Shown: positions 21,091 to 48,158 of the stretch, one piece after another
Layout: every line of letters starts with the position of its first letter
Numbering within the stretch: the stretch's first letter is position 1
Assembly (NCBI GenBank): GCA_964532425.1
Contig: CAZHIA010000003.1
Span: forward strand, 201,748 to 265,747
Direction: 5' to 3'
Length of the DNA: 64,000 bases
Source of the DNA: an uncultured Candidatus Saccharibacteria bacterium
Lineage (GTDB): Bacteria > Patescibacteriota > Doudnabacteria > UBA920
Notes under the pieces: generated by a model
Told to the model about the DNA's origin: nothing
Seen by the model: only the letters and a program-made list of their open reading frames with translations
Databases searched by the model: none
Position numbers and translations under genes: made by a program

Positions 21091-21188
21091 CAATTCCCAA
21101 TTTCCAATATCCAATTCCCAATGGCTGGATTTTGTTGGGAAACCTGCCTGCCGGCAGGCAGGTTAGAAATTGGGTATTAGAAATTAAT
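21091..21188. repeat. MITE-like element: CCAATTTCCAAT-type arms around GC palindrome CCTGCCTGCCGGCAGGCAGG
   Basis: between rsmH and mraZ; related copy at 36848-36948. Confidence 0.55.
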
Positions 21189-21190
21189 TA

Positions 21191-21619
21191 TTACACCCCC
21201 AGCGTTCCCAGCTGCTCCGCGATATTATTGCTTTCCTTCTCGGTCTGCAACTTGTACGTATTCCAGAGTTCCTCGCTCCAAATTTCAACACGGTTGAACA
21301 AGCCGGCGAACACAATCTTCTTGTTGATTTTGGCGAAGTCCTTCAAGTAAGCAGGCAGGTTAATTCTCCCCTGCTTATCTATCTCGCAGTCCATTGCCCC
21401 GGCCAGCATCAGACGGGAAAAAGCTCTGGTGTTGGCCGTGGAAATGGGCAGGCTGGCCAGCTTTTCCGCCAGCTTCTTCCACTCGTCCATGGTATACAAA
21501 AACAGCGAATTATCGAGCCCACGGGTCACTACGACTTTAGCCTTCAGTTGGGTGCGGAATTTCGCTGGTATGGAAATTCTTCCTTTTTCATCGATATTAG
21601 CTTGGTATTCGCCGATGAA
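21191..21619 (-). CDS. mraZ: transcriptional regulator MraZ
   Basis: MFIGEYQANIDEKGRISIPAKFR ... second DxxGRxxIP repeat. Confidence 0.85.
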   Translation of the reverse strand, partial: FIGEYQANIDEKGRISIPAKFRTQLKAKVVVTRGLDNSLFLYTMDEWKKLAEKLASLPISTANTRAFSRLMLAGAMDCEIDKQGRINLPAYLKDFAKINKKIVFAGLFNRVEIWSEELWNTYKLQTEKESNNIAEQLGTLGV

Positions 21620-22195: not shown

Positions 22196-22300
22196 ATACA
22201 AATCTACAGATGTATCCGAATCTACAAATACCTACAAATTCCGGTAAGTGGAATTTGTAGGTATTTGTAGATCTGTAGCAAATTTGTAAATTTGCAGCAC
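22196..22300. repeat. repeat element containing 21-bp perfect IR CTACAAATACCTACAAATTCC / GGAATTTGTAGGTATTTGTAG
   Basis: IR arms 22222-22242 and 22250-22270; TCTACAGAT and TTTGTAAATT units shared with 39692-39790. Confidence 0.6.
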
Positions 22301-22312: not shown

Positions 22313-22807
22313 TCATGCATTACGAAGCCCATACATGGCCACTCCGAATGCTACAGAGACGTTCAGACTCTCTTTTTGGCCGAGCATAGGAATTTCCAAA
22401 AGCACATCACACTGCCGTAACAACGATTTACCGATACCACTCACTTCTTCGCCGAGAATTAATGTTAGAGGAAATGTTGGTTTGAATATATTCAAAGGGC
22501 GCAGGCGGCCAATGGCCGCCCCTACATTATTCTCAAGACCAACAATCTGGATACCGGGATGTTCTTTTTTGAGCTTGGTGATTAGCCTGCCGGCTGATCT
22601 GGAATACTCCCAGGGCACGAAATTTTCGGCTCCCAGGGCTGTTTTTGCGATTTTTGAGGCGTGGACCGGGTTATCGGGCGCACCCGTATATCCGGTCAAA
22701 TACAACCGAGTCACACCAAAGGCATCCGCAGTGCGAAAAATAGAACCGACATTAAGGAGCGAGCGGATGTTATGGGCGATGACAAATATTTCTTCGCTAT
22801 TTTTCAT
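22313..22807 (-). CDS. SpoU/TrmH-family RNA 2'-O-methyltransferase
   Basis: SPOUT motifs GLENNVGAAIGR, LILGEE, NVSVAFGVAMY. Confidence 0.7.
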   Translation of the reverse strand: MKNSEEIFVIAHNIRSLLNVGSIFRTADAFGVTRLYLTGYTGAPDNPVHASKIAKTALGAENFVPWEYSRSAGRLITKLKKEHPGIQIVGLENNVGAAIGRLRPLNIFKPTFPLTLILGEEVSGIGKSLLRQCDVLLEIPMLGQKESLNVSVAFGVAMYGLRNA

Positions 22808-22813: not shown

Positions 22814-22917
22814 GCTACGAAACTACGGAATACACGAATCTACGGAAAACTACAAATTCTCTTCATGAAGATCCGTAGTTTTCCGTAGATTCGGATTCTT
22901 TTCGTAGTTTCGTAGTC
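22814..22917. repeat. ~100-bp imperfect palindrome built of CTACGAAACTACGG / CCGTAGTTTTCGTAG units
   Basis: arms ~40 bp each around TCTTCATGAAGA core. Confidence 0.55.
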
Positions 22918-23774: not shown

Positions 23775-23950
23775 ATCGAATCAACGAATGGAACGAATCT
23801 GCGAATATTCTACGAAGCTACGAATTCGTTGATTCGTAGCCCTTCGTAGATTCGCCTGCCTGCCCCGGCACCATCATATGGTGCTCGGGCCTGCCGGTAG
23901 GCAGGCCTGCCTGCCGGTAGGCAGGTCTTGATTCGTAGATTCGATATATT
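23775..23950. repeat. composite repeat: TTCGTAG/CGAAT palindromic units plus two GCCTGCCGGTAGGCAGGC palindromes and GGCACCATCATATGGTGC hairpin
   Basis: intergenic between histidine kinase and response regulator. Confidence 0.5.
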
Positions 23951-27722: not shown

Positions 27723-27983
27723 GCTATTAATTCAAAATGAAAAATTCAAAATTCAAAATGTAGGTGTCCGCCGAAGGCGGACTCTATAACTTTTAACTTT
27801 ACACTTTTAACTTTGAACTGATATGTGTACGTTCGTTCACCTTATTATGATAGCATAAAAAAACGGCCAAAGCCGTAAGTTGTCCACAAGAAGCTTTCAG
27901 CTATCAGCTTATAGCTGTTAGGAGGGGCCGATAAAAAGAACTTCAATGCTGGTATTCCTATAAGCTAAAAGCTATAAGCTTGC

Positions 27984-28463
27984 CTAATGTTTTTTCTCCT
28001 GCCCTCCCGGCAGGCTCCCGTGGTGTTCGCTTCCCTGGGCGCCGTGTTGTTGGCTGTGCTGTCCGTGTCCCCCGCCATGATGTGCATGGTGGTGAGCCGC
28101 CAGCTCCCGCCGCACATGAACATGGCGCTTCTTATGAAAAAAGAAGATGGTCAAACCGAACAGCAGATATCCTGCCCAGAATGGCCAGCGCTTATATGGC
28201 TCGTAACCAACGATCGGTACTATAACGAGAAAGTCTCCCAGCAGGGAAAGCAACAGCCAGACAATAGCCGTCATCAGTCCTTCCAGGTAGTTAATCACCC
28301 CGAGGCGCCGGCAGCAGGCCAACGTGGCCAGGCAAATTAAAAAGCCGAACAGAACCTGGGCAAACAAAGTATCTATCCCGGTGAATTTGAAAAAAAGGAC
28401 CTTAATGGCAACCGTAAGCAGCCAGGCCAGAAAGCCGTAGCCAAAAAATTTTTTGAAGGTCAT
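27984..28463 (-). CDS. hypothetical membrane protein, His-rich C-terminus
   Basis: four TM helices; HHHAHHGGGHGQH tail. Confidence 0.45.
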   Translation of the reverse strand: MTFKKFFGYGFLAWLLTVAIKVLFFKFTGIDTLFAQVLFGFLICLATLACCRRLGVINYLEGLMTAIVWLLLSLLGDFLVIVPIVGYEPYKRWPFWAGYLLFGLTIFFFHKKRHVHVRRELAAHHHAHHGGGHGQHSQQHGAQGSEHHGSLPGGQEKKH

Positions 28464-28467
28464 ATAA

Positions 28468-28551
28468 ATATAAAACCTTTAACATTTAACATTTGACCTT
28501 TAACTTAATACAAAACCGGTCAAATGTCATATGTCAAAGGTTAAATGTTGT
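28468..28551. repeat. MITE-like element, TTTGACATTTGACC family copy 1
   Basis: AACATTTAACATTTGACC ... GGTCAAATGTCATATGTCAAAGGTTAAATGTT inverted arms. Confidence 0.6.
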
Positions 28552-28563: not shown

Positions 28564-29082
28564 CTATTTCACGGTTTTTCTTGCCACGCGCTTGCGCACA
28601 GTCGGTTTGACGGTCGGTTTTATGGTAACCGGCATCCGTTCTACTTCCTTCGAAAGGTCTTCCAACTCCCACAAGCCCTTTTCCAAATCGCGGGCCACAT
28701 CTGCGGTCAAGTGCGAGATACGGGTTTTCAGTGTACCGGGTTGATAAGAGGGCTTGACCCTGGCGCTGGCATACAACAGGTGTTCCAAAAGGCCGCCATG
28801 GATATTGCTTTCATACACTGCCTCATACCAGTATGAACCGATCCAGATCCCATACCAAACACCACCGAGCAGGGCAAAAACCATCGTGATATACTCCAGC
28901 GCCAGGAATTCGATCCCGGATAAGCCGAATGTCAGAAAATCATTGCTCTCTGCTAAGATGACGAAATACAAAAACACTGCGATCCGGTGCAGGATCAAAA
29001 AGAGCAATGCCCCTAACAGCGCGGTGAGAAAAATATAAAAAACTTTTCTCGCTCCATTTGTCATATAATTTTTATTTCCCAA
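28564..29082 (-). CDS. hypothetical membrane protein
   Basis: 172 aa, several TM helices. Confidence 0.45.
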   Translation of the reverse strand: MGNKNYMTNGARKVFYIFLTALLGALLFLILHRIAVFLYFVILAESNDFLTFGLSGIEFLALEYITMVFALLGGVWYGIWIGSYWYEAVYESNIHGGLLEHLLYASARVKPSYQPGTLKTRISHLTADVARDLEKGLWELEDLSKEVERMPVTIKPTVKPTVRKRVARKTVK

Positions 29083-29141
29083 AGATATTATTTGGTTTTA
29101 GTATAGAATAGTTTGCGGAAAAACGCAAATCATTGTTACTA

Positions 29142-29222
29142 ACATGCGACATGTAACCTTTGACATTTGACCAACCGAAACAGATTCACGTCAAATGTTA
29201 AATGTCAATTGTCAAATGTCCT
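29142..29222. repeat. MITE-like element, TTTGACATTTGACC family copy 2
   Basis: TAACCTTTGACATTTGACC ... GTCAAATGTTAAATGTCAATTGTCAAATGTCC. Confidence 0.6.
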
Positions 29223-34599: not shown

Positions 34600-36201
34600 T
34601 TAGTATAACGAATTTAAAAGGCTTATCCCGGTCATCTCAGCCGGCTTTTCGATGCCGAACAGATCCAAGATGGTCGGAGCCACATCGCAGACCACACCGC
34701 CAGGCACGTGTTCTGCTAGGTTCTCATACTCGCGCGCCTTAGGCGTGACAAAGCGAAATTCTTCCGCGACGACCAGCAACGGCACCGGGTTGGTCGTATG
34801 GTCTTTGTCTATCTCGCCCGTCTTCATGTTGATCATCTGCTCGACATTGCCATGGTCCGCCGTTACCACCAGCGCAGCACCAGCCTGCAAAACAGCATCT
34901 CGAATCTTACCCAGACACTGGTCCAGCGCCTCCACCGCCGCGATACCAGCAGTTAAATTGCCGGTATGGCCGACCATATCACCGTTGGCAAAATTAGCAA
35001 CGAATAAGTTAGTGTCAGTATGGAGGATTTTATCGACGAGCATATCGGTGAGCGCGTCAGCTGACATGCGCGGATTATCGACGTAATTCTTCGTATTATT
35101 TGTCGGGCTGGCTACAATGTACCGGTCCTCTCCGGAATACCGTTCGCTCCGGCCGCAATTGAAAAAGACAGTAACGTGGGCGTATTTCTCGCTCTCTGCC
35201 ATATGGAACTGCGACATGCCTTTTTGAGAGATCACTTCAGCCAGATTGTTGTTGAGGTTCATGGGTCCAAAAGCAACCTTGACCGGGAAATCCGGGCTGT
35301 ACTCGGTCATAGTTGCGATATACATGTTTTGGAAAGGCTGGTGGCGAAACTGTTCGGGGACAATCTCGGAATTAACGAACATTTCCGTCAGCTGCATCAC
35401 GCGGTCTGTTCGGAAATTGAAAAAGATAACCGCGTCATTGTCGGAGATCCTAGCCACGGGCGCGCCGTCCGAACGCAAAATCACGGTCGGCTTGATCATT
35501 TCATCAAAAACATTCTTGGCATAGTTATTGCGGATACAGTCCTCGGCTGATGGTGCCATCTCCCCTGCCCCGTTGACCAGGGCCTGATACGTCAACTCGG
35601 TCTGTTCCCAATGGCCGCCGCGGTCCATAGCGTAAAATCGACCTGCGATGGTGGCTACTTCTCCAGCGCCGATCTCGTCGATCTTTTCGTGTAGCTTGCG
35701 AAGCGATTCCAAGGCCACCTTTTCGTCAGTGTCCCGGCCGTCAGTGAACATATGGATATATACCGAATGGACATGGTGTTCGACCGCCAGCTCAAGCAAT
35801 GCATAAGCATGCTCGTCCAGACTGTGTACCCCACCCGGACTGACCATACCGACCAGATGCAGTTTGGAATTGTTTTTAGCCGCATGGTCAGCAGCCCCGC
35901 AGAGCGCCGGGTTTCGAAAAAACTCATGCATCTGAATCGAATTGGTAATGCGCGGCAAATCCTGGCCGACTATGCGCCCGGCGCCGATATTGAGGTGTCC
36001 AACCTCACTATTCCCCATCTCGCCCCATGGCAGGCCAACCAGAGGTCCTGAAGCCTGAATGGTCGTTACCGGATAATCAGCCACAATTTCATTCAGATTG
36101 GGAGTCCTTGCCTGGCTAATGGCATTGCCATGGCCCGGATGGGACACGCCAAATCCGTCGAAGATGACCAAAACAACTTTGCTGTATGTTTTATGCTCCA
36201 T
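34600..36201 (-). CDS. gpmI: 2,3-bisphosphoglycerate-independent phosphoglycerate mutase
   Basis: VVLVIFDGFGV, DGRDT, HGNVEQM-type motifs. Confidence 0.9.
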   Translation of the reverse strand: MEHKTYSKVVLVIFDGFGVSHPGHGNAISQARTPNLNEIVADYPVTTIQASGPLVGLPWGEMGNSEVGHLNIGAGRIVGQDLPRITNSIQMHEFFRNPALCGAADHAAKNNSKLHLVGMVSPGGVHSLDEHAYALLELAVEHHVHSVYIHMFTDGRDTDEKVALESLRKLHEKIDEIGAGEVATIAGRFYAMDRGGHWEQTELTYQALVNGAGEMAPSAEDCIRNNYAKNVFDEMIKPTVILRSDGAPVARISDNDAVIFFNFRTDRVMQLTEMFVNSEIVPEQFRHQPFQNMYIATMTEYSPDFPVKVAFGPMNLNNNLAEVISQKGMSQFHMAESEKYAHVTVFFNCGRSERYSGEDRYIVASPTNNTKNYVDNPRMSADALTDMLVDKILHTDTNLFVANFANGDMVGHTGNLTAGIAAVEALDQCLGKIRDAVLQAGAALVVTADHGNVEQMINMKTGEIDKDHTTNPVPLLVVAEEFRFVTPKAREYENLAEHVPGGVVCDVAPTILDLFGIEKPAEMTGISLLNSLY

Positions 36202-36363
36202 AATGATGTTTTTGTTTCGTTATCTGATTACTGAAATCTGCGCCCAGTATTGCCTGTATTATACAGGAAATCGCCGAAAATGAAAAAATGCCCTGCCTCC
36301 GCCTCCGTCGGTTGACGGATGACAGACGACAGGGCGGGCACGGCGTCCAGGAACAAGCCTGGT

Positions 36364-36735
36364 TTAAGCGACTTGGAGGGCGCCAGTGGCGAGCAGTGGG
36401 TGTCCGGCTCGCATAACGTTTCCTCTTCTCGTCTTGACGGGTTGGGGAATTTCTTTGCGGAGTATGTACTCCACGCATCCCCGGCCGTCCGGAGCAAATT
36501 CGATCAGGAATTCGGGCATGCGCTCTCTGAGGCGCAACACGACCGTAGCCAAGTTGACCGGATTGTTGGCATCGCGAAGCACGCGGTCAAGATCTGCATG
36601 GTCACGCAGCGGATAGTCATGGGTCTGACCCTTCGTATCCTTGCGGCTGCGAAACACCGACCAGTCTTCCCTCATTCCAATTACCAAATCGTCGAGGATC
36701 GGTCCCAAAGGGTCCTCAAGCTGCTCAGTATTCAA
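36364..36735 (-). CDS. hypothetical protein
   Basis: AGGAGG SD before MNTEQL; competing plus-strand ORF judged a shadow. Confidence 0.4.
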   Translation of the reverse strand: MNTEQLEDPLGPILDDLVIGMREDWSVFRSRKDTKGQTHDYPLRDHADLDRVLRDANNPVNLATVVLRLRERMPEFLIEFAPDGRGCVEYILRKEIPQPVKTRRGNVMRAGHPLLATGALQVA

Positions 36736-36847
36736 TTCATTTGCCTCCTGCTATGGAATTTTTTGTTTACGCCTCATACAATTTTGAAACGCAATTGTAT
36801 TTAAAAGCAATTTGTTTTTTGTGTCAAGATGTGGACAAATGGAAAAA

Positions 36848-36948
36848 TCCAATTTCCAATTCCCAATTTCTAATAAAACACCCAAACTGACCAGTACCAG
36901 TTTGGGTGTTCTGAATTTTTTGGAAATTAGATATTGGAAATTGGAAAT
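36848..36948. repeat. MITE-like element: CCAATTTCCAATTCCCAATTTCTAAT / ATTAGATATTGGAAATTGGAAATTT arms around 13-bp perfect hairpin AACACCCAAACTG/CAGTTTGGGTGTT
   Basis: immediately downstream of pgk stop; same family as 21091-21188. Confidence 0.6.
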
Positions 36949-38175
36949 TTATTTCAATGCTTCTATCCCCGGCAGTTTCTTGCCGGCTAAATATTCCAGC
37001 ATGGCGCCGCCACCGGTGGAGACATGGTCGATATTCTCAAACTGGTGCGATTGCCTCACCGCATCCACCGTTTCTCCGCCACCGACTACGGCATAAGCCT
37101 TGCGGCCGGCAACACCGCCGATGACGCGCGCCAAAGCCATAGTAGCCGTGCGGAACGGCTTGGCTTCAAAATAGCCTAGCGGGCCATTCCAGACGATGGT
37201 TTTGGCTGCTTTGAGCTCTTCCGCATACATGAGAATAGTCTTCGGCCCAACATCCAGGATCATCTCTTGCTTGCCCACCTCATAGGGCGTACGGACCCGA
37301 ATCGAATCGCGGCTCATATTCTTGTCTGCCACTACGACATCCACGGGCAACAGCAGTTTATCCTTGAAATTCTTCGAGATCTCAAAAGCAATGCGTTCCG
37401 CCCCGTCTTCCGCTTTCGACAATCCGACTTCCATACCTTTCGCTTTGAAGATCAATGTAGACAATCCCCCGCCAAGCAGGATCTTGTCAGCCTTTTCCCC
37501 GAGATGGGTAAGCGTCTTGGCTTTGTCGGAAATTTTAATGCCACCCATGAGCAGGACAAAGGGTTTCTTGTGCTTATGAGTCACGACATCAAGCGATTTA
37601 ATCTCTTGCTCCAGTAACGGGCCACAATATGACGGTAATAATTTCGTAATGACAGCTGTCGACGCGGCAGCCCGATGGCACACGGAAAAAGCGTCGTTGA
37701 CATAGACATCACCCAAACGAGCCAGACACCGCGCGAAATATTTGTCATTCTCCTCTTCACCCTTGTAGAAGCGGAGGTTTTCCAGCATGACAATATCCTT
37801 GGCCGTAATATTCTTGAGCTGGTCAGCGTGCAGGTCAGCCATAATGTTCCCGGTGTAGAAGATGAGATGGCTAATGGGGTACTCAGGCAGCGGGTGATGA
37901 GTTTCCAAAAACTTATACCCTAAATGCCCGGCAAGGACCTTGGCCACGGGCTTCAACGACAAACTCTTATCCCGGCCCTCGGGCCTTCCCAAATGCCCGC
38001 AGAGAATAATGCGATTATTCCCTTCCTGAAGCATCCGAATGGTCGGAATAATGGAGGCAATGCGAAAATCATCCGCCACCTTGCCGGTCTTATCGTCAAT
38101 CGGAACATTCACATCCACGCGCAGAAGGATGGTTTTATTTTTTAGGGTAGTGGGTTTTAGATACTTGATGGACAT
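36949..38175 (-). CDS. pgk: phosphoglycerate kinase
   Basis: MSIKYLKPTT...RVDVNVP; GGGA/GGGETV nucleotide-binding motifs. Confidence 0.9.
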   Translation of the reverse strand: MSIKYLKPTTLKNKTILLRVDVNVPIDDKTGKVADDFRIASIIPTIRMLQEGNNRIILCGHLGRPEGRDKSLSLKPVAKVLAGHLGYKFLETHHPLPEYPISHLIFYTGNIMADLHADQLKNITAKDIVMLENLRFYKGEEENDKYFARCLARLGDVYVNDAFSVCHRAAASTAVITKLLPSYCGPLLEQEIKSLDVVTHKHKKPFVLLMGGIKISDKAKTLTHLGEKADKILLGGGLSTLIFKAKGMEVGLSKAEDGAERIAFEISKNFKDKLLLPVDVVVADKNMSRDSIRVRTPYEVGKQEMILDVGPKTILMYAEELKAAKTIVWNGPLGYFEAKPFRTATMALARVIGGVAGRKAYAVVGGGETVDAVRQSHQFENIDHVSTGGGAMLEYLAGKKLPGIEALK

Positions 38176-38655
38176 ATGATACCGATATACGGATTTGAAT
38201 ACTGATGATACGGATAAATACGGATCACCCCTTCCAGTTATCTATCCTCACAATACGCTTGGGTTTGATGTATTTATCCCGAAAATTGACCAGGATTCCA
38301 AGTTTTAGACCACTCTCTTGAAGGTACCGTTGTACTTGATAATAAACGTCTTTTGTTAATAACCGCTTAGCCTTAAACTCGAGTAGCACCAGCCCTTTCA
38401 CTATACCATCTGCAATATTATTTGAATCCCCGATTCTCACTTCCGTTTCAAACCCTATTCCTTTTTCTTTGAATAAGCGCTTAACCACCTCTACGTATTG
38501 CTTCTCTCGAGCATATGGGCCGACTTCGTTATGTGCCGCAAACAGTACACCATTAATGTCAAACGTCAAATCCTCGTAAATCAGTTTACGTTCTCTAGGT
38601 TTGATATCCGTATTATCAGTATCATCCGTACCCATCAGTATATCCGTATCATATT
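38176..38655. mobile_element. GxxExxY-gene cassette flanked by imperfect inverted repeats of ATACGGAT/CAGTAT units
   Basis: flanks 38180-38224 and 38598-38652 are reverse-complement related; inserted between gap and pgk. Confidence 0.5.
38225..38635 (-). CDS. GxxExxY-family protein (PD-(D/E)xK nuclease-like)
   Basis: HNEVGPYAREKQYVEVV ... VLLEFKAKRLL ... GLKLGILVNFR; paralog of 42768..43127. Confidence 0.65.
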   Translation of the reverse strand: MGTDDTDNTDIKPRERKLIYEDLTFDINGVLFAAHNEVGPYAREKQYVEVVKRLFKEKGIGFETEVRIGDSNNIADGIVKGLVLLEFKAKRLLTKDVYYQVQRYLQESGLKLGILVNFRDKYIKPKRIVRIDNWKG

Positions 38656-39679
38656 ATATACTCTTCCCTACTAATATAGCCTCCTCCACCAGCCTATTGC
38701 TATACCCGAACTCGTTATCGTACCAGGCGATGATTTTAACAAAGTTGCCGTCAATAACCTGGGTCAGCGAGAGGTCGACGATGCAGGAAGCGGGATTGCC
38801 GACAATGTCGGATGACACGATCTGCTCAGTGGTGACTTCCAGGATGCCTTTATACGTCTTGTGCTTGCTGGCTTCGGTCATGGCTTTGTTGATCTCTTCC
38901 TTGGTGGTTTTTTTCTTCAGGATGATGGAAAAATCAGAGAGACTGCCGACTGGCGTAGGCACGCGGATGGCCAAGCCGTCAAATTTGCCGCGCAGCTCGG
39001 GAATAGCCTGAGTAGCCGAAATGGCAGCACCGGTGGAGGTGGGTATAATATTGGCCGCAGCGGCACGGGCGCGGCGCAGGTCATTGGCTTTGCCTCCGGG
39101 CGGCGGTCCGTCAACCAAATTTTGTTCGGCGGTATAACTGTGAATAGTGGTCATGAATGCCTTATCAATACCGAATTTGGCTTGCAATACCGCCATAACC
39201 GGCGTGATGCAGTTGGTTGTGCACGAAGCGTTGCTGATAATCGCCTGATCCTTGTAATCCTTCTGATTCACACCAAGCACAATGGTCGGAGTAACACCTT
39301 CGTCTTTGGCCGGGGCGGATATGATAACGCGGCGCGCGCCAGCCTTAATATGGGCAGACGCTTTTTCACTGTCCGTAAAACGCCCGGTAGACTCAATGAC
39401 CACGTCAACTTTTAACTTGCCCCAGGGCAGCATGCTCGGATCTTTTTCCGCAAAGATCGGGTACTTCTTACCTTCGACCACTACCTCCTTTTCGGTGGCT
39501 CCGATATCCAGCGGAAATTTCCCATAATTAGTGTCGTATTTTAACAAGTGCGCCAACACTTGAGGACTCGTCAAATCATTAATCCCCACTACTTCCAATT
39601 CTTTCTTTTCCAGCGCCAATTTAAAGGCCTGGCGTCCAATGCGGCCAAATCCGTTGATACCAACCCTAATCTTTTTCAT
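38654..39679 (-). CDS. gap: glyceraldehyde-3-phosphate dehydrogenase
   Basis: MKKIRVGINGFGRIGR; ASCTTNC catalytic motif. Confidence 0.9.
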   Translation of the reverse strand: MKKIRVGINGFGRIGRQAFKLALEKKELEVVGINDLTSPQVLAHLLKYDTNYGKFPLDIGATEKEVVVEGKKYPIFAEKDPSMLPWGKLKVDVVIESTGRFTDSEKASAHIKAGARRVIISAPAKDEGVTPTIVLGVNQKDYKDQAIISNASCTTNCITPVMAVLQAKFGIDKAFMTTIHSYTAEQNLVDGPPPGGKANDLRRARAAAANIIPTSTGAAISATQAIPELRGKFDGLAIRVPTPVGSLSDFSIILKKKTTKEEINKAMTEASKHKTYKGILEVTTEQIVSSDIVGNPASCIVDLSLTQVIDGNFVKIIAWYDNEFGYSNRLVEEAILVGKSI

Positions 39680-39691
39680 AGCATCTCCATG

Positions 39692-39790
39692 CAAATTTAC
39701 AGATGGTCACAAATCTACAGATACCTACCTATTTCCAATCCTGCATATCTGTAGTTATTTGTAAATTGGCTACTATCTGTAGATTGGCAT
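39692..39790. repeat. repeat element of TCTACAGAT/TTTGTAAATT family
   Basis: AAATTTACAGATGG...AAATCTACAGATACCTACC...ATATCTGTAG...TATCTGTAGATTGG; same motif set as 22196-22300. Confidence 0.55.
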
Positions 39791-39796
39791 TATTTA

Positions 39797-40024
39797 TTAT
39801 TCTGTTTCAATTAATTTTCTTTGCATTTCGCGCTGCTTGAGCAAATTCGATTTCTTGAGCTTAACCTGCTCATGCGTGACCGGCATCCCCTCATACTCGG
39901 TAGACATCATCAACTGCGCTTTCCAAAACAGCACCGAACCGAATGCTAATACCCCCATAAATACTATAACACAAAACCTTAGCTTGACGTTGGCATTCTT
40001 GACTTCGCTTCCGAGTAGCCCCAT
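39797..40024 (-). CDS. hypothetical small membrane protein
   Basis: 75 aa, one TM helix. Confidence 0.35.
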   Translation of the reverse strand: MGLLGSEVKNANVKLRFCVIVFMGVLAFGSVLFWKAQLMMSTEYEGMPVTHEQVKLKKSNLLKQREMQRKLIETE

Positions 40025-40092
40025 GTCTTTCTAGAAATAATTATCTGTACAAACCGATCTATACTGCTTTTCTATCACTAATACCAATCTGA

Positions 40093-41109
40093 CTATTTTC
40101 TATTTTTATATACCTCATCTATTACTCGCTGTTTCACTTTATGATCCGTGATAAGCACCGGCTGGTACGACTTCTTTTTCTTTAACTGAGTTTCTATGAC
40201 GTGCCGGCTCAAGAGTCCAGCTTGCGGCCCGATATGCTGAACTACACTCGCCGCATTGACCGTTCCCCACCGTAACGCTTCCCGATGCGGCAACCCGTAC
40301 GCCAGAGCCGCTATGTACGCCGTAGTGAATGAGTCCCCTGCCCCGGTCGCCTCGACGCGAGGACCGGGAAATTCCGGAATGTAATAAAAACCCTCGCTGC
40401 TCAAACTGAACGCGCCGCGCTGGCCATCGGTCAGCACAACCGCCTGCGGTCCAAGCTTGACCAGGCGTCGGCACAATTCTTCCGGGTCACGGCCGCAGTC
40501 ACCCACCCAGCCTTGCGCCTCTTCGACATTCAGTGACAGCAATGCGGTCCGCTTGAGTATCTGTTCATTAGCCTTGAGACCCTTGCGAAGCTGGAACGTG
40601 CCGGGATTGAATCCGAGCTTGGCCTCATACCGGTCAATATATTTGGCCAGGTCGCCATAGATCTTTTCAAAACCATTAGCCAGGCTGGTTAAATAGATCC
40701 AGCGTGCAGGTACGAGGTTCGGCAGTTTGTAAGTCCGGTGCTCGTGATACACAAATATCGTTCGCTCACCATCGTGGGAGAGCACGGTCGAGGCATTTGT
40801 TCCGTGGCGTTCATCAATCACGATAAACCTTGTCGAAACCCCTTCCTTCTGCATTTTATAGATTATTTCGCGGCCGCCGACATCGTGGGCCAGCACCGTA
40901 TAGAACGCCGTTTTAAGACCCAGCCGCGCCGAACCAACCGCGTTATTGGCAGCATTGCCCGCCACGGTGCGGTAAAATTCCTGAACCGGCAGTTTGTCGC
41001 CCCAGCTGATAATCGCTTTCTGCTGGCCCTCGATATCCTTGATCTCGACATCTTTAACGAACAGGAATGTATCAATGGTCGCATCGCCGATGGAAATAAT
41101 GTCAAACAT
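40093..41109 (-). CDS. PfkB-family carbohydrate kinase (ribokinase/fructokinase-like)
   Basis: MFDIISIGDATID; GGNAANNAVG; GAGDSFTTAYIAALAYG anion-hole/catalytic motifs. Confidence 0.75.
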   Translation of the reverse strand: MFDIISIGDATIDTFLFVKDVEIKDIEGQQKAIISWGDKLPVQEFYRTVAGNAANNAVGSARLGLKTAFYTVLAHDVGGREIIYKMQKEGVSTRFIVIDERHGTNASTVLSHDGERTIFVYHEHRTYKLPNLVPARWIYLTSLANGFEKIYGDLAKYIDRYEAKLGFNPGTFQLRKGLKANEQILKRTALLSLNVEEAQGWVGDCGRDPEELCRRLVKLGPQAVVLTDGQRGAFSLSSEGFYYIPEFPGPRVEATGAGDSFTTAYIAALAYGLPHREALRWGTVNAASVVQHIGPQAGLLSRHVIETQLKKKKSYQPVLITDHKVKQRVIDEVYKNRK

Positions 41110-41283
41110 GACAAATAGTGACTAGCGATTAATGAATAGTAAACAGTAAATAGTTTCGGACAATTAAATTACAGAACACCCACGACTACACTCAAGACTT
41201 CTTAGTACGTTCCCTCTCCAATTCATGGACAAGGGTACCCCAAATTTGCCAAAGGCAAATGAGAGGAATCCCCTGGAGAGAGG

Positions 41284-41786
41284 CAGGGAGAGGTTAACAT
41301 ACGACCTTCCTGATGGTTTCCAATATCCCTTCCATGTTACTATCTAAATCATTATTCCAGAATCTTAAGACCGTATACTTGTGTTCTTCTAAAAACTCTT
41401 GTTTGCTTTTGTCCTTCTGTGAGACTCCTATGGTACCATGTTGGCTGCCATCGAGTTCTATAACCAATCTTTTGCTCTGGCAACAGAAATCTACTACATA
41501 ATCGCCAATTGGCACTTGCCTCTTAAATTTAAGACCATTAAACCTGTTCCCTCGCAAAAAATACCATAACTTAGCTTCCCACGGGGTGGATTTCTTTCTG
41601 AGAAGCTTTGATACTATTGTCAGGTTTTTCCCTTCCAGAATCTAACCTCTCTCCTGTCCTCTCTCCATGCAATGGAGAGAGGAACCTTCTACACAGACTT
41701 TCTGATATTTATAATTCGCATAGATAGTATTAATTTCCACAGTACGTCCCCTCCCCAATGCATGGGGAGGGACAGGGAGAGGTTAA
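41284..41786. mobile_element. DUF559-gene cassette bounded by 14-bp direct repeats CAGGGAGAGGTTAA
   Basis: direct repeats at 41284-41297 and 41773-41786; internal CTCC...CATG...GGAG palindromes (41659-41682, 41746-41773). Confidence 0.5.
41294..41557 (-). CDS. DUF559 (Vsr-like endonuclease fold) protein, N-terminally truncated
   Basis: VPIGDYVVDFCCQSKRLVIELDGSQH ... VLRFWNNDL; TTG start. Confidence 0.6.
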   Translation of the reverse strand: MRGNRFNGLKFKRQVPIGDYVVDFCCQSKRLVIELDGSQHGTIGVSQKDKSKQEFLEEHKYTVLRFWNNDLDSNMEGILETIRKVVC

Positions 41787-42763
41787 AGCCGGGGTTTGTT
41801 TTTCCTCCCCATTACCTTCTTTACCGCACTGACAATGGCTTTTGTACCCATTCCGTATTTTTCGGCCAGTTCATTAGGCGTACCTGACTCGCCAAACACA
41901 TTCGGCATGCCGACCATTTCGATAGGCACGGGGCAGTGCTGTGCCAGCACCTCGCAGACCGCACTACCGCAGCCAGCCATTGTCTGGTGTTCCTCCAGTG
42001 TAACTACGGCCCCGCATTTTTGTGCTGCTGCCACAATCGTCTCAACATCGATCGGTTTGATGGTGTGATTATTGATCACCATCACGCTGAGACCTTCTTT
42101 TTCGAGTTCCCGGGCAGCAAGCAGTCCGCTGTAGAGTATCGGCCCGCTGCCGATTATCGCCGCGTCAGCTCCCTCCCGAAATACGACAGCCTTGCCGATC
42201 TCGAACGGAGCGTCCTCAGTGGTCATCACGGGCGACTTTTCCCGACCCAGTCGAAAATATACCGGTCCGGTAGTTTCAGCGGCTGCTATGGCCGTTTTTT
42301 TGGCTTCTACGGCATCACACGGAACGATCACGGTCAAATTCGGGAGGACTCGGGTAATTGCCACATCTTCGAGCGCCTGGTGAGTCGCCCCGTCAGGGCC
42401 AACCGAGACTCCGGCGTGGCAACCGGCAATCTTTACATTGGCCTGGCTGTAACATACGCTCACGCGCAGCTGATCCCAGGACCGTCCCGGTGAGAATACG
42501 GCATATGAGGTCACAAACGGAATCTTTCCGGCCAGCGCCATCCCCGCTGCCACACCCATCATATTCTGTTCAGCTACTCCACACTCAACGAACCGTTCCG
42601 GGTATTGTTTAGCAAACGCTTCAACGCGGGTGCTTTCTGCCAGATCCGCGGTCAGCACAACCACATTCTCGTCGGCCGCCCCGGCTTCCAATACACCATC
42701 ACCAAAACCATTACGAGTAGGGACTTGTTCGATGTCAGGTTGTCCAATCTTAGAGTTCAACAT
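41783..42763 (-). CDS. transketolase, C-terminal (pyrimidine-binding) subunit
   Basis: PTRNGFGDGVLEAG...; start ATG lies inside the left TIR of the adjacent cassette. Confidence 0.8.
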   Translation of the reverse strand: MLNSKIGQPDIEQVPTRNGFGDGVLEAGAADENVVVLTADLAESTRVEAFAKQYPERFVECGVAEQNMMGVAAGMALAGKIPFVTSYAVFSPGRSWDQLRVSVCYSQANVKIAGCHAGVSVGPDGATHQALEDVAITRVLPNLTVIVPCDAVEAKKTAIAAAETTGPVYFRLGREKSPVMTTEDAPFEIGKAVVFREGADAAIIGSGPILYSGLLAARELEKEGLSVMVINNHTIKPIDVETIVAAAQKCGAVVTLEEHQTMAGCGSAVCEVLAQHCPVPIEMVGMPNVFGESGTPNELAEKYGMGTKAIVSAVKKVMGRKNKPRL

Positions 42764-43208
42764 AATCCTAATTCCCCGAATTAATATCCAAATTCCCCGA
42801 ATAACTGCTATTAAGTACGCGCTTTGGAGACAATCGATACGCTCGAAAATTAACAAGCAATCCTAATTCTAATTTAGATGCTGTTAAATATCTTTGCATC
42901 TGCAAATAATCTTCTTTAGTAATATATGGTTTTGCTTTGAGATCAATAACTATTTTATTCTCAGCCAAGAAATCAACCCTGTTTCCCTTAGGTGATCCTT
43001 CTATGAATAGTTTAATTTCGTACTCCCGTCGATACTCAATTTGTTCTTCTATCAACATTTTTTCGAATTCATCACAATACTGTCTTTCCGACGCAAAACG
43101 TCCCAGCTTTTTATGGACCTTAAACACAATCCAACAATTTTATATGATAATTCTGGCTCCACTATTTGAGGCATTTGGATTGCAGTATTCGGGGAATTAG
43201 GATTATGT
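42761..43208. mobile_element. 448-bp TIR-bounded cassette encoding a GxxExxY protein
   Basis: TIR CATAATCCTAATTCCCCGAAT at 42761-42781, reverse complement at 43188-43208 (21 bp perfect; ~26 bp with internal duplication on left). Confidence 0.7.
42768..43127 (-). CDS. GxxExxY-family protein (PD-(D/E)xK nuclease-like)
   Basis: VDFLAENKIVIDLKAK ... ELGLLVNFR; C-terminal 12 aa encoded by the TIR. Confidence 0.6.
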   Translation of the reverse strand: MFKVHKKLGRFASERQYCDEFEKMLIEEQIEYRREYEIKLFIEGSPKGNRVDFLAENKIVIDLKAKPYITKEDYLQMQRYLTASKLELGLLVNFRAYRLSPKRVLNSSYSGNLDINSGN

Positions 43209-45389
43209 TTCCTTTCCTTGTAAAAACCCTATTATCTGCTCCCGGTGCCTGCGATAAATAATGGATACGCCGACCAAAATAAACCCGAGGGCTATGAACG
43301 ATACAACTCTAAAGCTCAAGTCCAATACGAGGAGATCGTACAAAAAGACCTTCAGAATAGTCACGGCGAACAAGACGACGGCCAGTTTTTTAAGCAATGA
43401 GTTGTTGCGGAAGACTCCCCAGAACATCATCACCGCCGAATACACGATCCACCACAGGCTCAAGATGAGGTTGCGGGCATTTTTTGAATCAAAACCCCGG
43501 TAATGCTCCACAATCTCCCATGAGACAGCTAGCCACAACAACAAACTCGCTCCTACATTGAACACATCACTCAGCTGATTCTGACCCTCGCCGCGGCGGT
43601 AGATATACGCGGCAAACAGCAAGGCCGCAGCCTCAAGTACCATTAATTCGAATTTGGTATTCATCAAGAAAACCGGGTTAGCGTCATATGGCAGCACGAG
43701 AACGCGTACCAGGCTAAACACCAGTAAGATCGCGGCCGTAGCCATAAGCAGCTTTCGTTTGGCCAATGCGGCAATCAGGAGCAACAGCGCCGGATACAAC
43801 ACCCACCATAACGCCATCCACTGGCTGCGAGCCAAGTCAGTCGTCCCGACCAGGGCCGCGGCAATATCCCAGCTGACTCCCGCCCACAGGACCAGGATTG
43901 CAACAATCTCCATAGCATCCCGCGCCTTGTCTCCGGTTTGCGGGTCCGGATACCGGCTATAGAGCCAGCCAGCATACAAAAGCGCCAAGGTATCGGCAAA
44001 CATCAGACCGAATTTGGCATTGAACAGGAAAACGAGATCTTGTGACGTATACGGCTCCACGACGGATTTGAACAGCGCCAAGAACAGAATCACCACACTC
44101 CACATGCGGAGCTCTTCGCGCTTCAATAATGCGCCGATCGTAATACCAAACAACCCCAAAGCCAACCAAGCGAGAGCCAAGGCCTTCCCCTGCCATTCCC
44201 AACCGGCGGCACAGACCAGCATGACAGCTCCCACAATCGATAATCCGTAGTTCAGCATACGGTATTCCAGCCGGTCAACTAAGGCATAAGCAAACAGGAA
44301 CAGCACACCGCCGAGCAACGCCACCGGTGCAAGCAGCGAATGATAGTTCTCATTAAGAAGCAGCGCGATGGATATAAAATAGAACAAGCCGGACAGAGTC
44401 GCTACAATTGAAGCATCTTTTTCGAAATTTTTCGGAAGCACCCCCTGTGCGTGATGATACCTGGTCAAAAAACCGAGACCGAGCACGAATAGCACAGACG
44501 TGAAAATGATAAAGAACAGGCTCGGATAGGTATTGCCCGCATTCGAGTAAGCGGAACCCCAGACGGCAAAATCGAGCGTTGCCCCAACCAGGGCTAGCAG
44601 CATCAATTCCAGCCAATATTTTCTCGCCAGAACGACCAACACAGCAATGTTAAGCAGCGTAAGATAAATGAGCAGCGGCCCCTGCTGGTCATGACCGGTA
44701 GACAAAACGAGCGGTGACCCATAAGCCCCAAAAAATGCCAATGCCCCCAAAGCCAGAGAAGAATGCCGATATGCCAGCCAGACGGATAGCGCGGCAACAC
44801 CGAGCATAAGCACGAACGCCAGCGGCTGGGGCAGCAATCCATAAAAATGGAAGCCGGCATACAAAGTGAAATACAACAAGGCAATACCGCCTCCTGTAAT
44901 GGCTAGCGCGTAATTACCATACCGTTCCTTCCACAATTCTCCAAGATAGATCAGCAATCCGCCAACGGCCAATCCGAGCGCAATACGGACCCACTCATTG
45001 ATCCAGCCCATGTCAACGGCGATCTTATAAAAAAACGCAACGCCTAAAACCAGAGCAGCGACCCCGATCTTGTTGAGCCAAGAAATCGCGCGGTCCGTAT
45101 TCATCTCGCTGTGCCGTTCCTCAGGCCTGGCAGAGACAGGGGCTTGGAAGGTCCGTGCTTCCGGCTCGCGGTGCGACGGAAAAGGCGTATGATGAATTTC
45201 CGGCTGCTGCAGCGCGGCATTGTATTCGGCTTCGGTCGGCGGACGTGGCGCAGGGCGCGGCGGAGCGGACGCAAGTCCCTGGCTCCGCAGACGCGCTTCC
45301 AATTCATGTACGCGATTGTTGATACTGGCAATCCAAAAGATCAGAATAAGAACGACAACGAACAGTACGAATTCAATGAATCCGGACAT
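43203..45389 (-). CDS. DUF2339-like polytopic membrane protein
   Basis: 728 aa, >20 predicted TM helices in repeated blocks; stop codon overlaps right TIR. Confidence 0.55.
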   Translation of the reverse strand: MSGFIEFVLFVVVLILIFWIASINNRVHELEARLRSQGLASAPPRPAPRPPTEAEYNAALQQPEIHHTPFPSHREPEARTFQAPVSARPEERHSEMNTDRAISWLNKIGVAALVLGVAFFYKIAVDMGWINEWVRIALGLAVGGLLIYLGELWKERYGNYALAITGGGIALLYFTLYAGFHFYGLLPQPLAFVLMLGVAALSVWLAYRHSSLALGALAFFGAYGSPLVLSTGHDQQGPLLIYLTLLNIAVLVVLARKYWLELMLLALVGATLDFAVWGSAYSNAGNTYPSLFFIIFTSVLFVLGLGFLTRYHHAQGVLPKNFEKDASIVATLSGLFYFISIALLLNENYHSLLAPVALLGGVLFLFAYALVDRLEYRMLNYGLSIVGAVMLVCAAGWEWQGKALALAWLALGLFGITIGALLKREELRMWSVVILFLALFKSVVEPYTSQDLVFLFNAKFGLMFADTLALLYAGWLYSRYPDPQTGDKARDAMEIVAILVLWAGVSWDIAAALVGTTDLARSQWMALWWVLYPALLLLIAALAKRKLLMATAAILLVFSLVRVLVLPYDANPVFLMNTKFELMVLEAAALLFAAYIYRRGEGQNQLSDVFNVGASLLLWLAVSWEIVEHYRGFDSKNARNLILSLWWIVYSAVMMFWGVFRNNSLLKKLAVVLFAVTILKVFLYDLLVLDLSFRVVSFIALGFILVGVSIIYRRHREQIIGFLQGKET

Positions 45390-48057: not shown

Positions 48058-48158
48058 AATCCTAATGCTCCGAATTGGTATCCGTATGCCCCGAATGGAC
48101 CCATTCGATTCGGGTCATTCGGATTGCAAGCATTCGGATAATTCGGATTATATTTACA
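48055..48158. mobile_element. ~100-bp MITE-like derivative (R1-B) of the GxxExxY cassette; terminus overlaps rpiB start codon
   Basis: CATAATCCTAATGCTCCGAAT...GCCCCGAATGGACCCATTCGATT...CATTCGGATTGCAAGCATTCGGATAATTCGGATTATAT. Confidence 0.6.

What the first reader, a model, noticed from the sequence alone, without database searches (positions are those of the whole stretch)
38176..38655. Second GxxExxY cassette inserted between gap and pgk, flanked by inverted ATACGGAT-unit repeats
A 136-aa paralog of the 42768-43127 protein sits between glycolytic neighbours that are normally adjacent. Its flanks (38180-38224 and 38598-38652) are reverse-complement related arrays of ATACGGAT and CAGTAT units (GATATACGGATTTGAATACTGATGATACGGATAAATACGGATC versus GATATCCGTATTATCAGTATCATCCGTACCCATCAGTATATCCGTATC). 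The end sequences differ from the 42761 element, so GxxExxY cargo is carried by at least two distinct TIR families. The N-terminal 12 codons of the ORF are encoded by the repeat.
Basis: seen in the sequence. Interest (0 to 1): 0.6.

Follow-up and report, generated by a model that had tools for sequence, protein, structure and literature searches.

The report
Nuclease gene inside a hairpin repeat element
The small nuclease gene between gap and pgk is the gene-carrying member of a widespread, apparently undescribed family of hairpin-forming repeat elements that fill the gaps between co-transcribed genes in CPR (Patescibacteria) bacteria, which gives a first functional lead for the uncharacterised GxxExxY protein family.

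Summary
A 136-aa GxxExxY (PF13366, PD-(D/E)XK) gene lies between gap and pgk. It is flanked by inverted arrays of ATACGGAT/ATACTGAT units, far beyond chance.

This is not a local oddity. In 72 homologous cassettes from many CPR phyla the same arms (GATACCAATATAC… / …GTATATTGGTATC, units TAC-N-[A/G]AT) flank the gene.

The same ends also occur as 80-130 nt ORF-less hairpins. I found 25 in about 0.84 Mb, and they best match the arms of the cassette in their own genome.

Both kinds fill operon junctions exactly. The left end lies within about 7 nt of the upstream stop codon. The right end lies 2-12 nt (cassettes) or 6-28 nt (hairpins) before the next ATG.

The window's second GxxExxY cassette uses TCC/CCC-type units of the same design. 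It has its own ORF-less partner at 48058-48153.

The gap-pgk site is occupied in most relatives, empty in one, and holds three cassette types.

No target-site duplication, recognised transposase or sense-strand RNA bias was found.

Best reading: a REPIN/RAYT-like pairing of hairpin repeats with a Cas4/RecB-like nuclease. The nuclease's action on the arms is inferred, not shown.

The parts
38176..38652 (-). Whole cassette: 5' arm, GxxExxY ORF and 3' arm. It fills the entire gap-pgk intergenic space.
   Evidence: Outer ends are ATGATACGG.../...CCGGTATCAT, in inverted orientation. Homologous cassettes have the same ends.
38598..38654 (-). Upstream (5') arm. In gene orientation it reads ATATGATACGGATATACTGATGGGTACGGATGATACTGATAATACGGAT, made of TAC-N-GAT units. 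It starts at the last base of the gap stop codon and contains the ORF's ATG and codons 1-12.
   Evidence: The N-terminal peptide M-x-T[DN]DT[DN]NT[DN] is kept in homologues because the DNA repeat is kept. In other homologues the array lies wholly upstream of the ATG.
38225..38635 (-). GxxExxY protein gene, 136 aa. It is a minimal PD-(D/E)XK nuclease with D76, E86-x-K88 and Q100-x-x-x-Y104.
   Evidence: PF13366 and TIGR04256 above their cutoffs. Conserved columns. AlphaFold model pLDDT 85. Nearest solved folds are Cas4 SSO0001 and lambda-type exonucleases, weakly.
38174..38225 (-). Downstream (3') arm. In gene orientation it reads ATCCGTATTTATCCGTATCATCAGTATTCAAATCCGTATATCGGTATCATAT. It begins at the ORF stop codon and ends at the pgk ATG (38173-38175), overlapping its first two bases.
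38654..39694 (-). gap (type I GAPDH), the upstream host gene. Its stop codon TAA (38654-38656) touches the cassette's left end.
36949..38175 (-). pgk, the downstream host gene. Its ATG follows the cassette's right end directly.
42759..43209 (-). Second GxxExxY cassette, between a DUF2339 membrane-protein gene and the transketolase C-terminal-part gene. It has a perfect 23-nt terminal inverted repeat (AACATAATCCTAATTCCCCGAAT). That repeat contains both the upstream stop codon (TAA) and the downstream ATG. The ORF carries a 1-nt deletion in a T run.
   Evidence: (I8, I23).
48058..48153 (-). ORF-less hairpin between tpiA and rpiB. It has the same right terminus (TTAGGATTATGTT) and ATTCGG(G/A)-type units as the second cassette. 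The rpiB ATG lies inside that terminus.
   Evidence: (MFE -41.8 kcal/mol, z -4.7).

Best explanation
The 38176-38652 segment is the ORF-bearing member of a CPR-wide family of hairpin-type intergenic repeat elements.

Anatomy. Each element has two arms of about 45-50 nt in inverted orientation. Each arm is an array of four to five 7-nt units (TAC-N-[A/G]AT in this family), 8-11 nt apart. The arms end in a conserved terminus, GATACCAATATAC / GTATATTGGTATC. Most copies are 80-130 nt hairpins with a short loop. In the 'master' copy the loop holds a gene for a minimal Cas4/RecB-like PD-(D/E)XK nuclease, the GxxExxY protein.

Position. The elements occupy junctions between co-directional genes. They start at the upstream stop codon and end at the downstream start codon.

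Proposed mechanism (inferred, not shown). The nuclease recognises the unit arrays of its own repeat type and cuts at or near the termini. It thereby copies, moves or homogenises hairpins within the genome. This resembles the way a single-copy RAYT transposase serves its REPIN hairpins, but with an unrelated enzyme fold. Because the arms can pair in the transcript, the stop and start codons of the neighbouring genes are held side by side. This may let the element sit in an operon junction without breaking co-expression, and may couple translation of the nuclease to the upstream gene.
For: Shown.
1. 72 homologous cassettes from many CPR phyla have the same two termini and unit arrays. The terminal 18 nt pair in 87% of cells, with two-sided changes at columns 1, 4, 7 and 15. 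None of 500 shuffles reached the observed number of cells changed on both sides.
2. There are 25 ORF-less hairpins with the same termini in 15 loci, about 0.84 Mb in all. Each resembles the arms of the cassette in its own locus: median rank 2 of 72, and rank 3 or better in 13 of 21.
3. In this window, the second cassette and the ORF-less hairpin at 48058-48153 share terminus and units.
4. Unit type agrees between the two arms in 114 of 165 cassettes, against 57 expected and a maximum of 73 in 1000 shuffles. It also follows the protein tree: the nearest protein neighbour has the same unit type in 31 of 47, against 11 expected.
5. Position. In 58 of 72 cassettes a co-oriented ORF ends near the left end, mostly -7 to +2 nt from it. 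In 64 of 72 a co-oriented ORF starts near the right end, mostly 2-12 nt after it. 21 of 25 ORF-less hairpins lie between co-directional genes and none between convergent genes.
6. Signs of movement. One gap-pgk junction is empty (L015). Three cassette types occupy that junction (TAC, CAC in L008, CGC in L126). The same type occurs in unrelated contexts. The window copy is closer to a non-syntenic copy (75%, L006) than to any syntenic copy (49-69%).
7. The variable N of each unit and the spacers between units are not complementary between arms. Columns 6, 14 and 18 pair in 25-38%, at or below the random expectation I calculated from the base counts. Selection therefore appears to act on the unit sequence, as for protein-binding sites, not on a perfect stem.
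8. The protein keeps the catalytic D...ExK and QxxxY residues. Its model most resembles Cas4 and lambda-exonuclease folds.

The REPIN/RAYT features used for comparison are taken from PMC3337134.
Against: - Nothing shows that the nuclease binds or cuts the arms. Co-divergence of protein and arms is also expected from simple common descent of a linked unit.
- No target-site duplication was found.
- No near-identical copies were seen. ORF-less copies within a genome are only about 85% alike by eye. No insertion polymorphism between very close genomes was seen.
- In this 64-kb window the ATACGGAT type has no ORF-less copy.
- The gap-pgk location is old and largely syntenic, so the window copy may no longer move.
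- The fold matches are weak (best E 2e-3, TM 0.47).
- A 120-aa single-domain nuclease has no obvious separate DNA-binding module.
Confidence: 0.5

Rival explanations
1. Homing-type invader. The hairpin repeats exist and spread for other reasons. The GxxExxY gene is a free-standing homing-endonuclease-like gene. It cuts ORF-less hairpins in or near the loop and is copied into them by repair, using the two arms as homology.
For: - The cassette looks like a hairpin whose loop was replaced by the ORF.
- Occupied and empty alleles of one junction exist.
- Several GxxExxY genes occur per genome: two in this 64-kb window and two in L008.
- PD-(D/E)XK homing endonucleases are known, for example I-Ssp6803I (own knowledge).
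Against: - ORF ends overlap the arms: the N-terminus here, and the C-terminal 'SGHSDINSGN' tails in the second family. This implies a long joint history, not repeated fresh invasion.
- Only one ORF-bearing copy per unit type is seen per locus, next to up to six ORF-less ones. That is not what an efficient homing gene would leave.
- The empty L015 junction has no hairpin at all.
Confidence: 0.2
2. Host-serving RNA element. The unit-array hairpins are functional parts of polycistronic mRNAs, for example processing or stability sites or translational-coupling devices. The GxxExxY protein is a factor acting on them, or a passenger.
For: - The elements lie almost only between co-directional genes. 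They abut, or even contain, the stop and start codons.
- This genome has such hairpins in many junctions, some enclosing terminator-like GC hairpins.
- Predicted stems are stable: the mean is -33 kcal/mol for the two arms joined by a short artificial linker.
- tRNA-splicing endonucleases, which cut RNA, appear among the weak fold matches.
Against: - There is no strand bias of the kind RNA structure leaves. G.U-type mismatches on the sense strand (118) equal those on the antisense strand (127).
- Sense and antisense folding energies do not differ (p 0.55 and 0.82).
- The N positions and spacers do not covary to keep pairing.
- No Rfam family matches.
- The junction works without any hairpin in L015.
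Confidence: 0.12
3. A classical TIR transposon or MITE family, moved by a transposase encoded elsewhere, carries GxxExxY as cargo.
For: - Terminal inverted repeats with several subterminal repeats are typical of transposase-binding ends.
- ORF-less short copies look like MITEs.
Against: - No target-site duplication.
- No transposase is linked to the repeats in any of the loci whose gene calls I inspected.
- The cargo co-diverges with the ends across phyla and unit types. This is unusual for cargo and expected for the element's own enzyme.
Confidence: 0.08
4. An ordinary vertically inherited gene. Its flanking repeats are merely local regulatory sites or products of slippage, with no mobility.
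For: - Seven loci from other genomes carry a cassette of this family in the same gap-pgk junction, as does the window.
- Divergence of the protein (49-74%) is in the range of Pgk (53-74%).
Against: - The same arms are conserved across many phyla in unrelated contexts.
- ORF-less copies with the same termini exist.
- An empty site exists, and three cassette types occupy one junction.
- The correlation with housekeeping-gene divergence is weak (rho 0.26-0.41, not significant).
Confidence: 0.05

Closest known systems
REPIN-RAYT systems (REP doublets forming hairpins, with their REP-associated tyrosine transposases) of Pseudomonas and Enterobacteria
   Same: - A short enzyme gene is flanked by inverted copies of an extragenic repeat.
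- Many ORF-less hairpin copies of about 90 nt lie in extragenic space.
- Each enzyme type has its own repeat type.
- Inheritance is largely vertical and the position in the genome is stable.
- There is no target-site duplication.

The REPIN/RAYT features are from PMC3337134, PMC3116915 and PMC5581495.
   Different: - The enzyme is a roughly 120-aa PD-(D/E)XK Cas4/RecB-like nuclease, not an HUH/Y1 transposase.
- The arms are arrays of 7-nt units, not a single REP palindrome with a GTAG head.
- The elements sit exactly between stop and start codons of co-directional genes.
- The host range is CPR/Patescibacteria.
Correia/NEMIS elements of Neisseria and other bacterial MITEs (own knowledge)
   Same: They are short TIR-bounded elements without a known dedicated transposase. 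They are often co-transcribed with neighbouring genes and able to fold into long hairpins in the transcript.
   Different: - Correia elements duplicate a TA target and carry no ORF-bearing relative. Here no duplication is found and an ORF-bearing member exists.
- The unit-array architecture of the arms differs.
IS200/IS605-family elements (own knowledge)
   Same: A small enzyme gene is associated with hairpin-forming ends, and insertion makes no target duplication.
   Different: IS200/IS605 ends are sub-terminal imperfect palindromes that are not inverted copies of each other. The enzyme is HUH TnpA. No such protein is present here.
Intervening sequences (IVS) of 23S rRNA that carry small ORFs (own knowledge)
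   Same: A small ORF lies in the loop of a long stem formed by flanking inverted repeats inside a transcript. The arrangement can make the insertion harmless to the host RNA.
   Different: The cassette lies between protein-coding genes, not in an rRNA helix. No evidence of RNA-level selection was found.
Cas4 / RecB / lambda-exonuclease branch of PD-(D/E)XK nucleases
   Same: D...ExK plus QxxxY motifs are conserved. These are the best structural matches: 4ic1 Cas4 SSO0001, 3sz4 and 3slp.
   Different: The GxxExxY protein is about half the size. It has no Fe-S cluster cysteines and no extra domains. Matches are weak (E at best 2e-3, TM about 0.47). No solved relative is detectable by sequence.

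Membership tests
GxxExxY protein family (TIGR04256 / Pfam PF13366 PDDEXK_3) | Profile score above the curated cutoff | tested here: met
   PF13366 scores 57.5 bits (cutoff 22). TIGR04256 scores 52.4 bits (cutoff 35).
GxxExxY protein family (TIGR04256 / Pfam PF13366 PDDEXK_3) | PD-(D/E)XK catalytic core (D ... E-x-K) and the N-terminal G..E..Y helix | tested here: met
   G39...E44-x-x-Y47, D76 and E86-F-K88 are invariant or nearly so in 38 sequences. The model shows an alpha/beta core.
Classical TIR insertion sequence or transposon | Terminal inverted repeats | tested here: met
Classical TIR insertion sequence or transposon | Encodes a recognised transposase (DDE, serine, tyrosine or HUH) | tested here: not met
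   The only ORF is a 136-aa PD-(D/E)XK protein, and it matches no transposase family.
Classical TIR insertion sequence or transposon | Target-site duplication flanking the ends | tested here: not met
   In 95 elements, identical flanking 2-5-mers are no more frequent than in shuffled pairs.
MITE | Short ORF-less copies with the same TIRs, several per genome | tested here: met
   25 ORF-less hairpins in 15 loci, up to six in 12 kb (L085). In the window this holds only for the second cassette's type (48058-48153).
REPIN-RAYT system | Enzyme gene flanked by inverted copies of the dispersed repeat, with a specific enzyme-repeat association | tested here: met
   The defining features are taken from PMC3337134.
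REPIN-RAYT system | The enzyme is an HUH/Y1 (IS200-like) tyrosine transposase | tested here: not met
   The protein is PD-(D/E)XK. The element is therefore analogous to this system, not a member.
REPIN-RAYT system | One enzyme gene per repeat type per genome | not testable with these tools
   Only a 64-kb window of this genome is available. The rest of the 285,837-bp contig listed as the longest for P0001 could not be fetched.
Homing endonuclease gene | Occupied and empty alleles of the same site | tested here: met
   The L015 gap-pgk junction is empty. Seven loci from other genomes, and the window, are occupied.
Homing endonuclease gene | The enzyme cleaves the empty site | not testable with these tools
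   This needs biochemistry.
rRNA intervening sequence | Located within an rRNA helix | tested here: not met
   The cassette lies between gap and pgk. Rfam finds only two tRNA matches in the window.
Known anti-phage defence systems (PADLOC) | Match to a defence-system protein model | tested here: not met
   No PADLOC family matches either GxxExxY protein.

The most novel reading that the evidence does not exclude
GxxExxY proteins are the dedicated enzymes of a previously undescribed class of bacterial repeat. These repeats are operon-junction hairpins built from arrays of nnC-N-[A/G]AT units. Each nuclease clade has co-evolved with its own unit type. This would be a second, independently evolved REPIN/RAYT-like partnership, based on a Cas4/RecB-like nuclease. 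Its hairpins embed the neighbouring genes' stop and start codons and so keep operon expression intact.
Probability: 0.3. Interest if true: 0.85.

Novelty: new variant of a known kind. Interest (0 to 1): 0.7.

Why it matters
GxxExxY/PDDEXK_3 is a large family. The 2012 survey of the PD-(D/E)XK superfamily lists its function as 'Unknown' (PMC3424549). Full-text searches found no later functional work.

Linking it to a conserved, dispersed hairpin repeat gives a concrete and testable function: sequence-specific action on TAC-N-AAT-type arrays. It also suggests that the REPIN/RAYT way of life (PMC3337134) has a counterpart with a different enzyme fold in the reduced genomes of CPR bacteria.

It also matters for annotation. 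The repeat-encoded N- and C-terminal tails of these proteins are probably incidental. Stop and start codons of core metabolic genes can lie inside repeat ends. Short-read assemblies break in these arms.

Tried and rejected
- **Sense-strand RNA stem.** G.U-compatible mismatches are equal on the two strands (118 against 127). Sense and antisense folding energies do not differ. The N and spacer positions do not covary. This reading is not supported, though not excluded.
- **Target-site duplication.** None was found at boundary offsets 0-3 for k = 2-5.
- **Known RNA family.** The Rfam gathering search of the window found only two tRNA matches.
- **Defence system.** No PADLOC hit. The PHROG hits are families of unknown function.
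- **Phage carriage.** The terminus pattern gave 42 hits in viral contigs. These are isolated chance matches without arrays; only one has a partner terminus, and it also lacks an array.
- **Strict vertical inheritance.** Protein divergence correlates only weakly with gap/pgk divergence.
- **A functional N-terminal TDDTDNTD peptide.** Rejected. In many homologues the array lies upstream of the ATG, and the segment is disordered in the model.
- **Literature.** Searches for GxxExxY, PDDEXK_3, PF13366, CPR plus inverted repeats, and Patescibacteria plus MITE found nothing on this association.

Full report
**1. The observation**

The ORF at 38225..38635 on the minus strand encodes 136 aa. It matches Pfam PF13366 (PDDEXK_3; 57.5 bits, cutoff 22) and NCBIfam TIGR04256 (GxxExxY; 52.4 bits, cutoff 35). 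The ORF at 42768..43127 matches the same families. The two proteins are 34% identical.

The neighbours are a type I GAPDH gene (38654..39694) and pgk (36949..38175), both on the same strand.

The flanks are inverted copies of one another. The repeat finder reports arms of 21 nt (90% complementary) and 18 nt (94%). A local alignment of the 5' flank with the reverse complement of the 3' flank runs over about 50 nt and scores 56. In 1000 dinucleotide shuffles the mean was 17.6 and the maximum 33. In 1000 random position pairs of the window the maximum was 49.

ATACGGAT occurs 7 times in the window against 1.7 expected. Five of the seven lie in these flanks. The ATG and the first 12 codons lie within the upstream arm.

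**2. The flanks belong to the gene family, not to this locus**

The protein has hundreds of relatives in CPR/Patescibacteria metagenome bins, with Doudnabacteria closest.

Their N-termini keep M-x-T[D/N]DT[D/N]NT[D/N]. Some C-termini end in tails such as QYYPYHPH. These are translations of the repeat units: ACGGAT gives TD, and TATCCGTAT gives YPY.

I fetched loci for exact homologues and 80 loci from a scan of one genome per species. In 72 cassettes both termini could be located. They come from Doudna-, Magasanik-, Woese-, Harrison-, Levy-, Azam-, Taylor-, Falkow-, Jorgensen- and Jacksonbacteria, among others.

- The 5' arm reads G-A-T-R-C-N-A-A-T-A-T-A-C-N-A-A-T, followed by two or three more TAC-N-AAT units. 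The 3' arm mirrors it.
- Doudnabacteria-like copies, including the window, have G at the fifth unit position (ACGGAT, ACTGAT), with the matching C in the other arm. Most others have A with T.
- On the terminal 18 nt of 87 distinct elements, 87.4% of cells pair. Columns 1, 4, 7 and 15 change on both sides (AU to GC). None of 500 shuffles reaches the observed number of cells changed on both sides.
- The N position of each unit and the spacers (columns 6, 14, 18) pair in only 25-38%. That is at or below the random expectation I calculated from the base counts.
- In many homologues the array lies wholly upstream of the ATG. Residues 1-15 of the window protein are disordered in the model.

The repeat is therefore a nucleic-acid feature, and its translation is incidental.

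**3. ORF-less copies**

I searched the fetched loci (0.84 Mb) for the two termini 45-175 nt apart. This found 25 short hairpins of 69-146 nt in 15 loci, with up to six in 12 kb of L085. They contain the same unit arrays and fold with -27 to -65 kcal/mol.

Each resembles the arms of the cassette in its own locus more than the cassettes of other genomes. The own cassette has median rank 2 of 72, rank 1 in 8 of 21, and rank 3 or better in 13 of 21. Such within-genome likeness implies copying or homogenisation inside genomes.

In the window itself the ATACGGAT type has no ORF-less copy. The second cassette does have one. The 96-nt hairpin at 48058-48153, between tpiA and rpiB, shares its right terminus (TTAGGATTATGTT) and its ATTCGG(G/A) units.

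**4. Position**

In 58 of 72 cassettes a co-oriented ORF ends near the left terminus, mostly -7 to +2 nt from it. In 64 of 72 a co-oriented ORF starts near the right terminus, mostly 2-12 nt after it.

Of the 25 ORF-less hairpins, 21 lie between co-directional genes with similar spacing (start codon 6-28 nt after the right end). None lies between convergent genes.

In the window the arm begins at the last base of the gap stop codon. It ends by overlapping the first two bases of the pgk ATG. In the second cassette the upstream stop (TAA) and the transketolase ATG both lie inside the perfect 23-nt terminal repeat (AACATAATCC… / …GGATTATGTT). The rpiB ATG lies in the same terminus of the ORF-less copy.

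**5. History at gap-pgk**

Among the fetched loci that contain gap or pgk:

- Seven from other genomes carry a cassette of this family in the junction: L010, L012, L013, L014, L017, L043 and L074. In L074 the ORF is interrupted and pgk was not detected in the locus.
- L008 carries a 35%-identical relative with CAC-type units there, and a TAC-type cassette 3 kb upstream.
- L126 carries a CGC-type cassette of the second protein group there.
- L015 has an empty 47-nt spacer with no array, and its cassette lies elsewhere.

The window protein is 75% identical to a copy between Nramp and infC (L006), but only 49-69% identical to the syntenic copies. Protein identity correlates only weakly with gap/pgk identity (rho 0.26-0.41, not significant).

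The junction is therefore an old and recurrent home. Inheritance is mostly vertical, with occasional replacement or movement.

**6. One design, several unit types**

Relatives of the second GxxExxY protein are flanked by arrays whose units are TCC-, CCC-, CAC-, CGC- or TAC-N-[A/G]AT. Their C-terminal tails (SGHSDINSGN and similar) are translations of the 3' arm.

The commonest unit type agrees between the two arms in 114 of 165 cassettes, against 57 expected and a maximum of 73 in 1000 shuffles. Within the second group, the nearest protein neighbour has the same unit type in 31 of 47 cases, against 11 expected and a maximum of 26.

The two 'TIR families' of the finding are thus variants of one architecture.

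The window holds many further intergenic hairpins with tandem-unit arms, using CTAC-, TTC- and GTC-type and other units. Some enclose GC-rich terminator-like hairpins.

**7. The protein**

D76, E86-x-K88 and Q100-x-x-x-Y104 are conserved. This is the motif set of the RecB/Cas4/lambda-exonuclease branch (own knowledge).

The AlphaFold model (pLDDT 85) matches Cas4 SSO0001, LHK and lambda exonucleases, tRNA-splicing endonucleases and Hjc. All matches are weak (E at best 2e-3, TM about 0.47).

There is no solved relative by sequence, no defence-system match and no functional literature.

**8. DNA or RNA?**

- Mismatches that would be G.U on the sense strand (118) equal those that would be G.U on the antisense strand (127).
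- Sense and antisense folding energies do not differ, for the hairpins or for the cassette arms joined by a short artificial linker.
- The N and spacer positions are not kept complementary.

This argues for selection on the unit sequences in both arms, as for arrays of protein-binding sites at element ends. It argues against selection on an RNA stem. It does not exclude that the transcript folds.

No target-site duplication is present. This argues against DDE-type transposition. It is compatible with the mechanisms of IS200/IS605 and REPINs (own knowledge).

**9. Interpretation**

The best-supported reading is a two-part system: dispersed junction hairpins plus one ORF-bearing copy that encodes a small nuclease. 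It is analogous to REPINs and their RAYT (features from PMC3337134), but uses an unrelated enzyme fold.

- **Shown:** the shared ends, the ORF-less copies, the genome-specific likeness, the arm-arm and arm-protein concordance, the junction position, the empty site and the multiple occupants.
- **Inferred:** that the nuclease recognises and cuts the arrays, and that folding of the arms in the mRNA keeps stop and start codons adjacent and so preserves operon expression.

The rivals are a homing gene invading pre-existing hairpins, host-serving RNA elements, a classical transposon with cargo, and a plain vertical gene. They are weighed in their own section of this report.

**10. Verdict**

The 'inserted cassette' idea is partly right. 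The segment opens onto a broader and apparently undescribed phenomenon. I rate it a new variant of a known kind (a REPIN/MITE-like repeat with an associated enzyme), with moderate confidence in the mechanism and high confidence in the anatomy.

Noticed in passing
window 36843-36950 and 21060-21195: Two ORF-less hairpins have arms that are arrays of AATTTCCAAT-type units. Each encloses a GC-rich inner hairpin. The first starts right after the pgk stop codon, and its inner hairpin is followed by a T run, so it looks like a terminator.
   Followed up: partly
window 22214-22272 and 22835-22896: Two complete hairpins with CTACAAAT / CTACGGAA units lie one on each side of a SpoU-family methyltransferase gene (22313..22807, PF00588). 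The first stem is 23 nt and 100% complementary.
   Followed up: partly
window 28467-28549 and 29141-29208: Hairpins with ACATTTGAC / GTCAAATGT units flank a 172-aa ORF (28564..29082) that has no Pfam match.
   Followed up: partly
window 19539-19619, 23810-23950, 27715-27990, 39712-39785: Further long intergenic hairpins with tandem-unit arms. Their units are TAGAAATA; CTACGAAT with CCTGCCGGCAGG; AAGCTTATAGC and TCAAAGTTAAAAG; and CTACAGAT just upstream of gap. Unit-array hairpins seem to be a general feature of this genome's junctions.
   Followed up: partly
window 41105-41790: An N-terminally truncated DUF559 (Vsr-like endonuclease) ORF lies at 41294..41557. It is flanked by TAACCTCTCCCTGYCYCTC repeats. 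A long hairpin lies upstream, and a further copy of the repeat lies downstream. This may be a second kind of nuclease-in-repeat cassette.
   Followed up: no
window 43100-43174: The second GxxExxY gene is frameshifted. MPQIVEPELSYKIVGLC (ORF 43052..43174) matches the family N-terminus, and the rest continues in another frame (42768..43127). The cause is TGTTTAAG where TGTTTTAAG is expected. The same sequence is present in an independent short-read assembly, L001.
   Followed up: yes
L001 and L002 (window 38188-44845 and 38213-40064): Two independent Logan assemblies of this organism are exact substrings of the window. Both break inside the 3' arm of the cassette. This suggests the array confuses short-read assembly, or recurs elsewhere in the sample.
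   Followed up: partly
window 38633-38656: Between the gap stop codon and the nuclease ATG, the arm holds a five-codon mini-ORF (ATG ATA CGG ATA TAC TGA). Its start follows the stop closely (TAATATG). Its stop overlaps the nuclease start (TGATG). L004 and L006 have the same layout, with ATGA and TGATG overlaps. Copies with G at the unit's N position lack the stop codon, so the layout is not universal.
   Followed up: partly
L008 10092-10551 and L126 (gap-pgk junction): The gap-pgk junction holds three different cassette types in different genomes: TAC-type, CAC-type and CGC-type. In L008 and L126 the last codons and the stop codon of gap lie inside the element's left terminus.
   Followed up: partly
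window 36202-36842: About 640 nt between gpmI (34600..36201) and the hairpin after pgk hold no ORF with a Pfam match. The 123-aa ORF 36364..36735 gave no hit.
   Followed up: no
window 6814-6938: A 34-nt inverted repeat (82% complementary) brackets and overlaps a tRNA gene (6841-6912). A second, weak tRNA match lies at 6945-7000.
   Followed up: no
L048 1575-2222: Here the GxxExxY ORF lies between two complete ORF-less hairpins (1575-1685 and 2105-2222), not between single arms. This is closer to the way RAYT genes are flanked by REPINs.
   Followed up: partly
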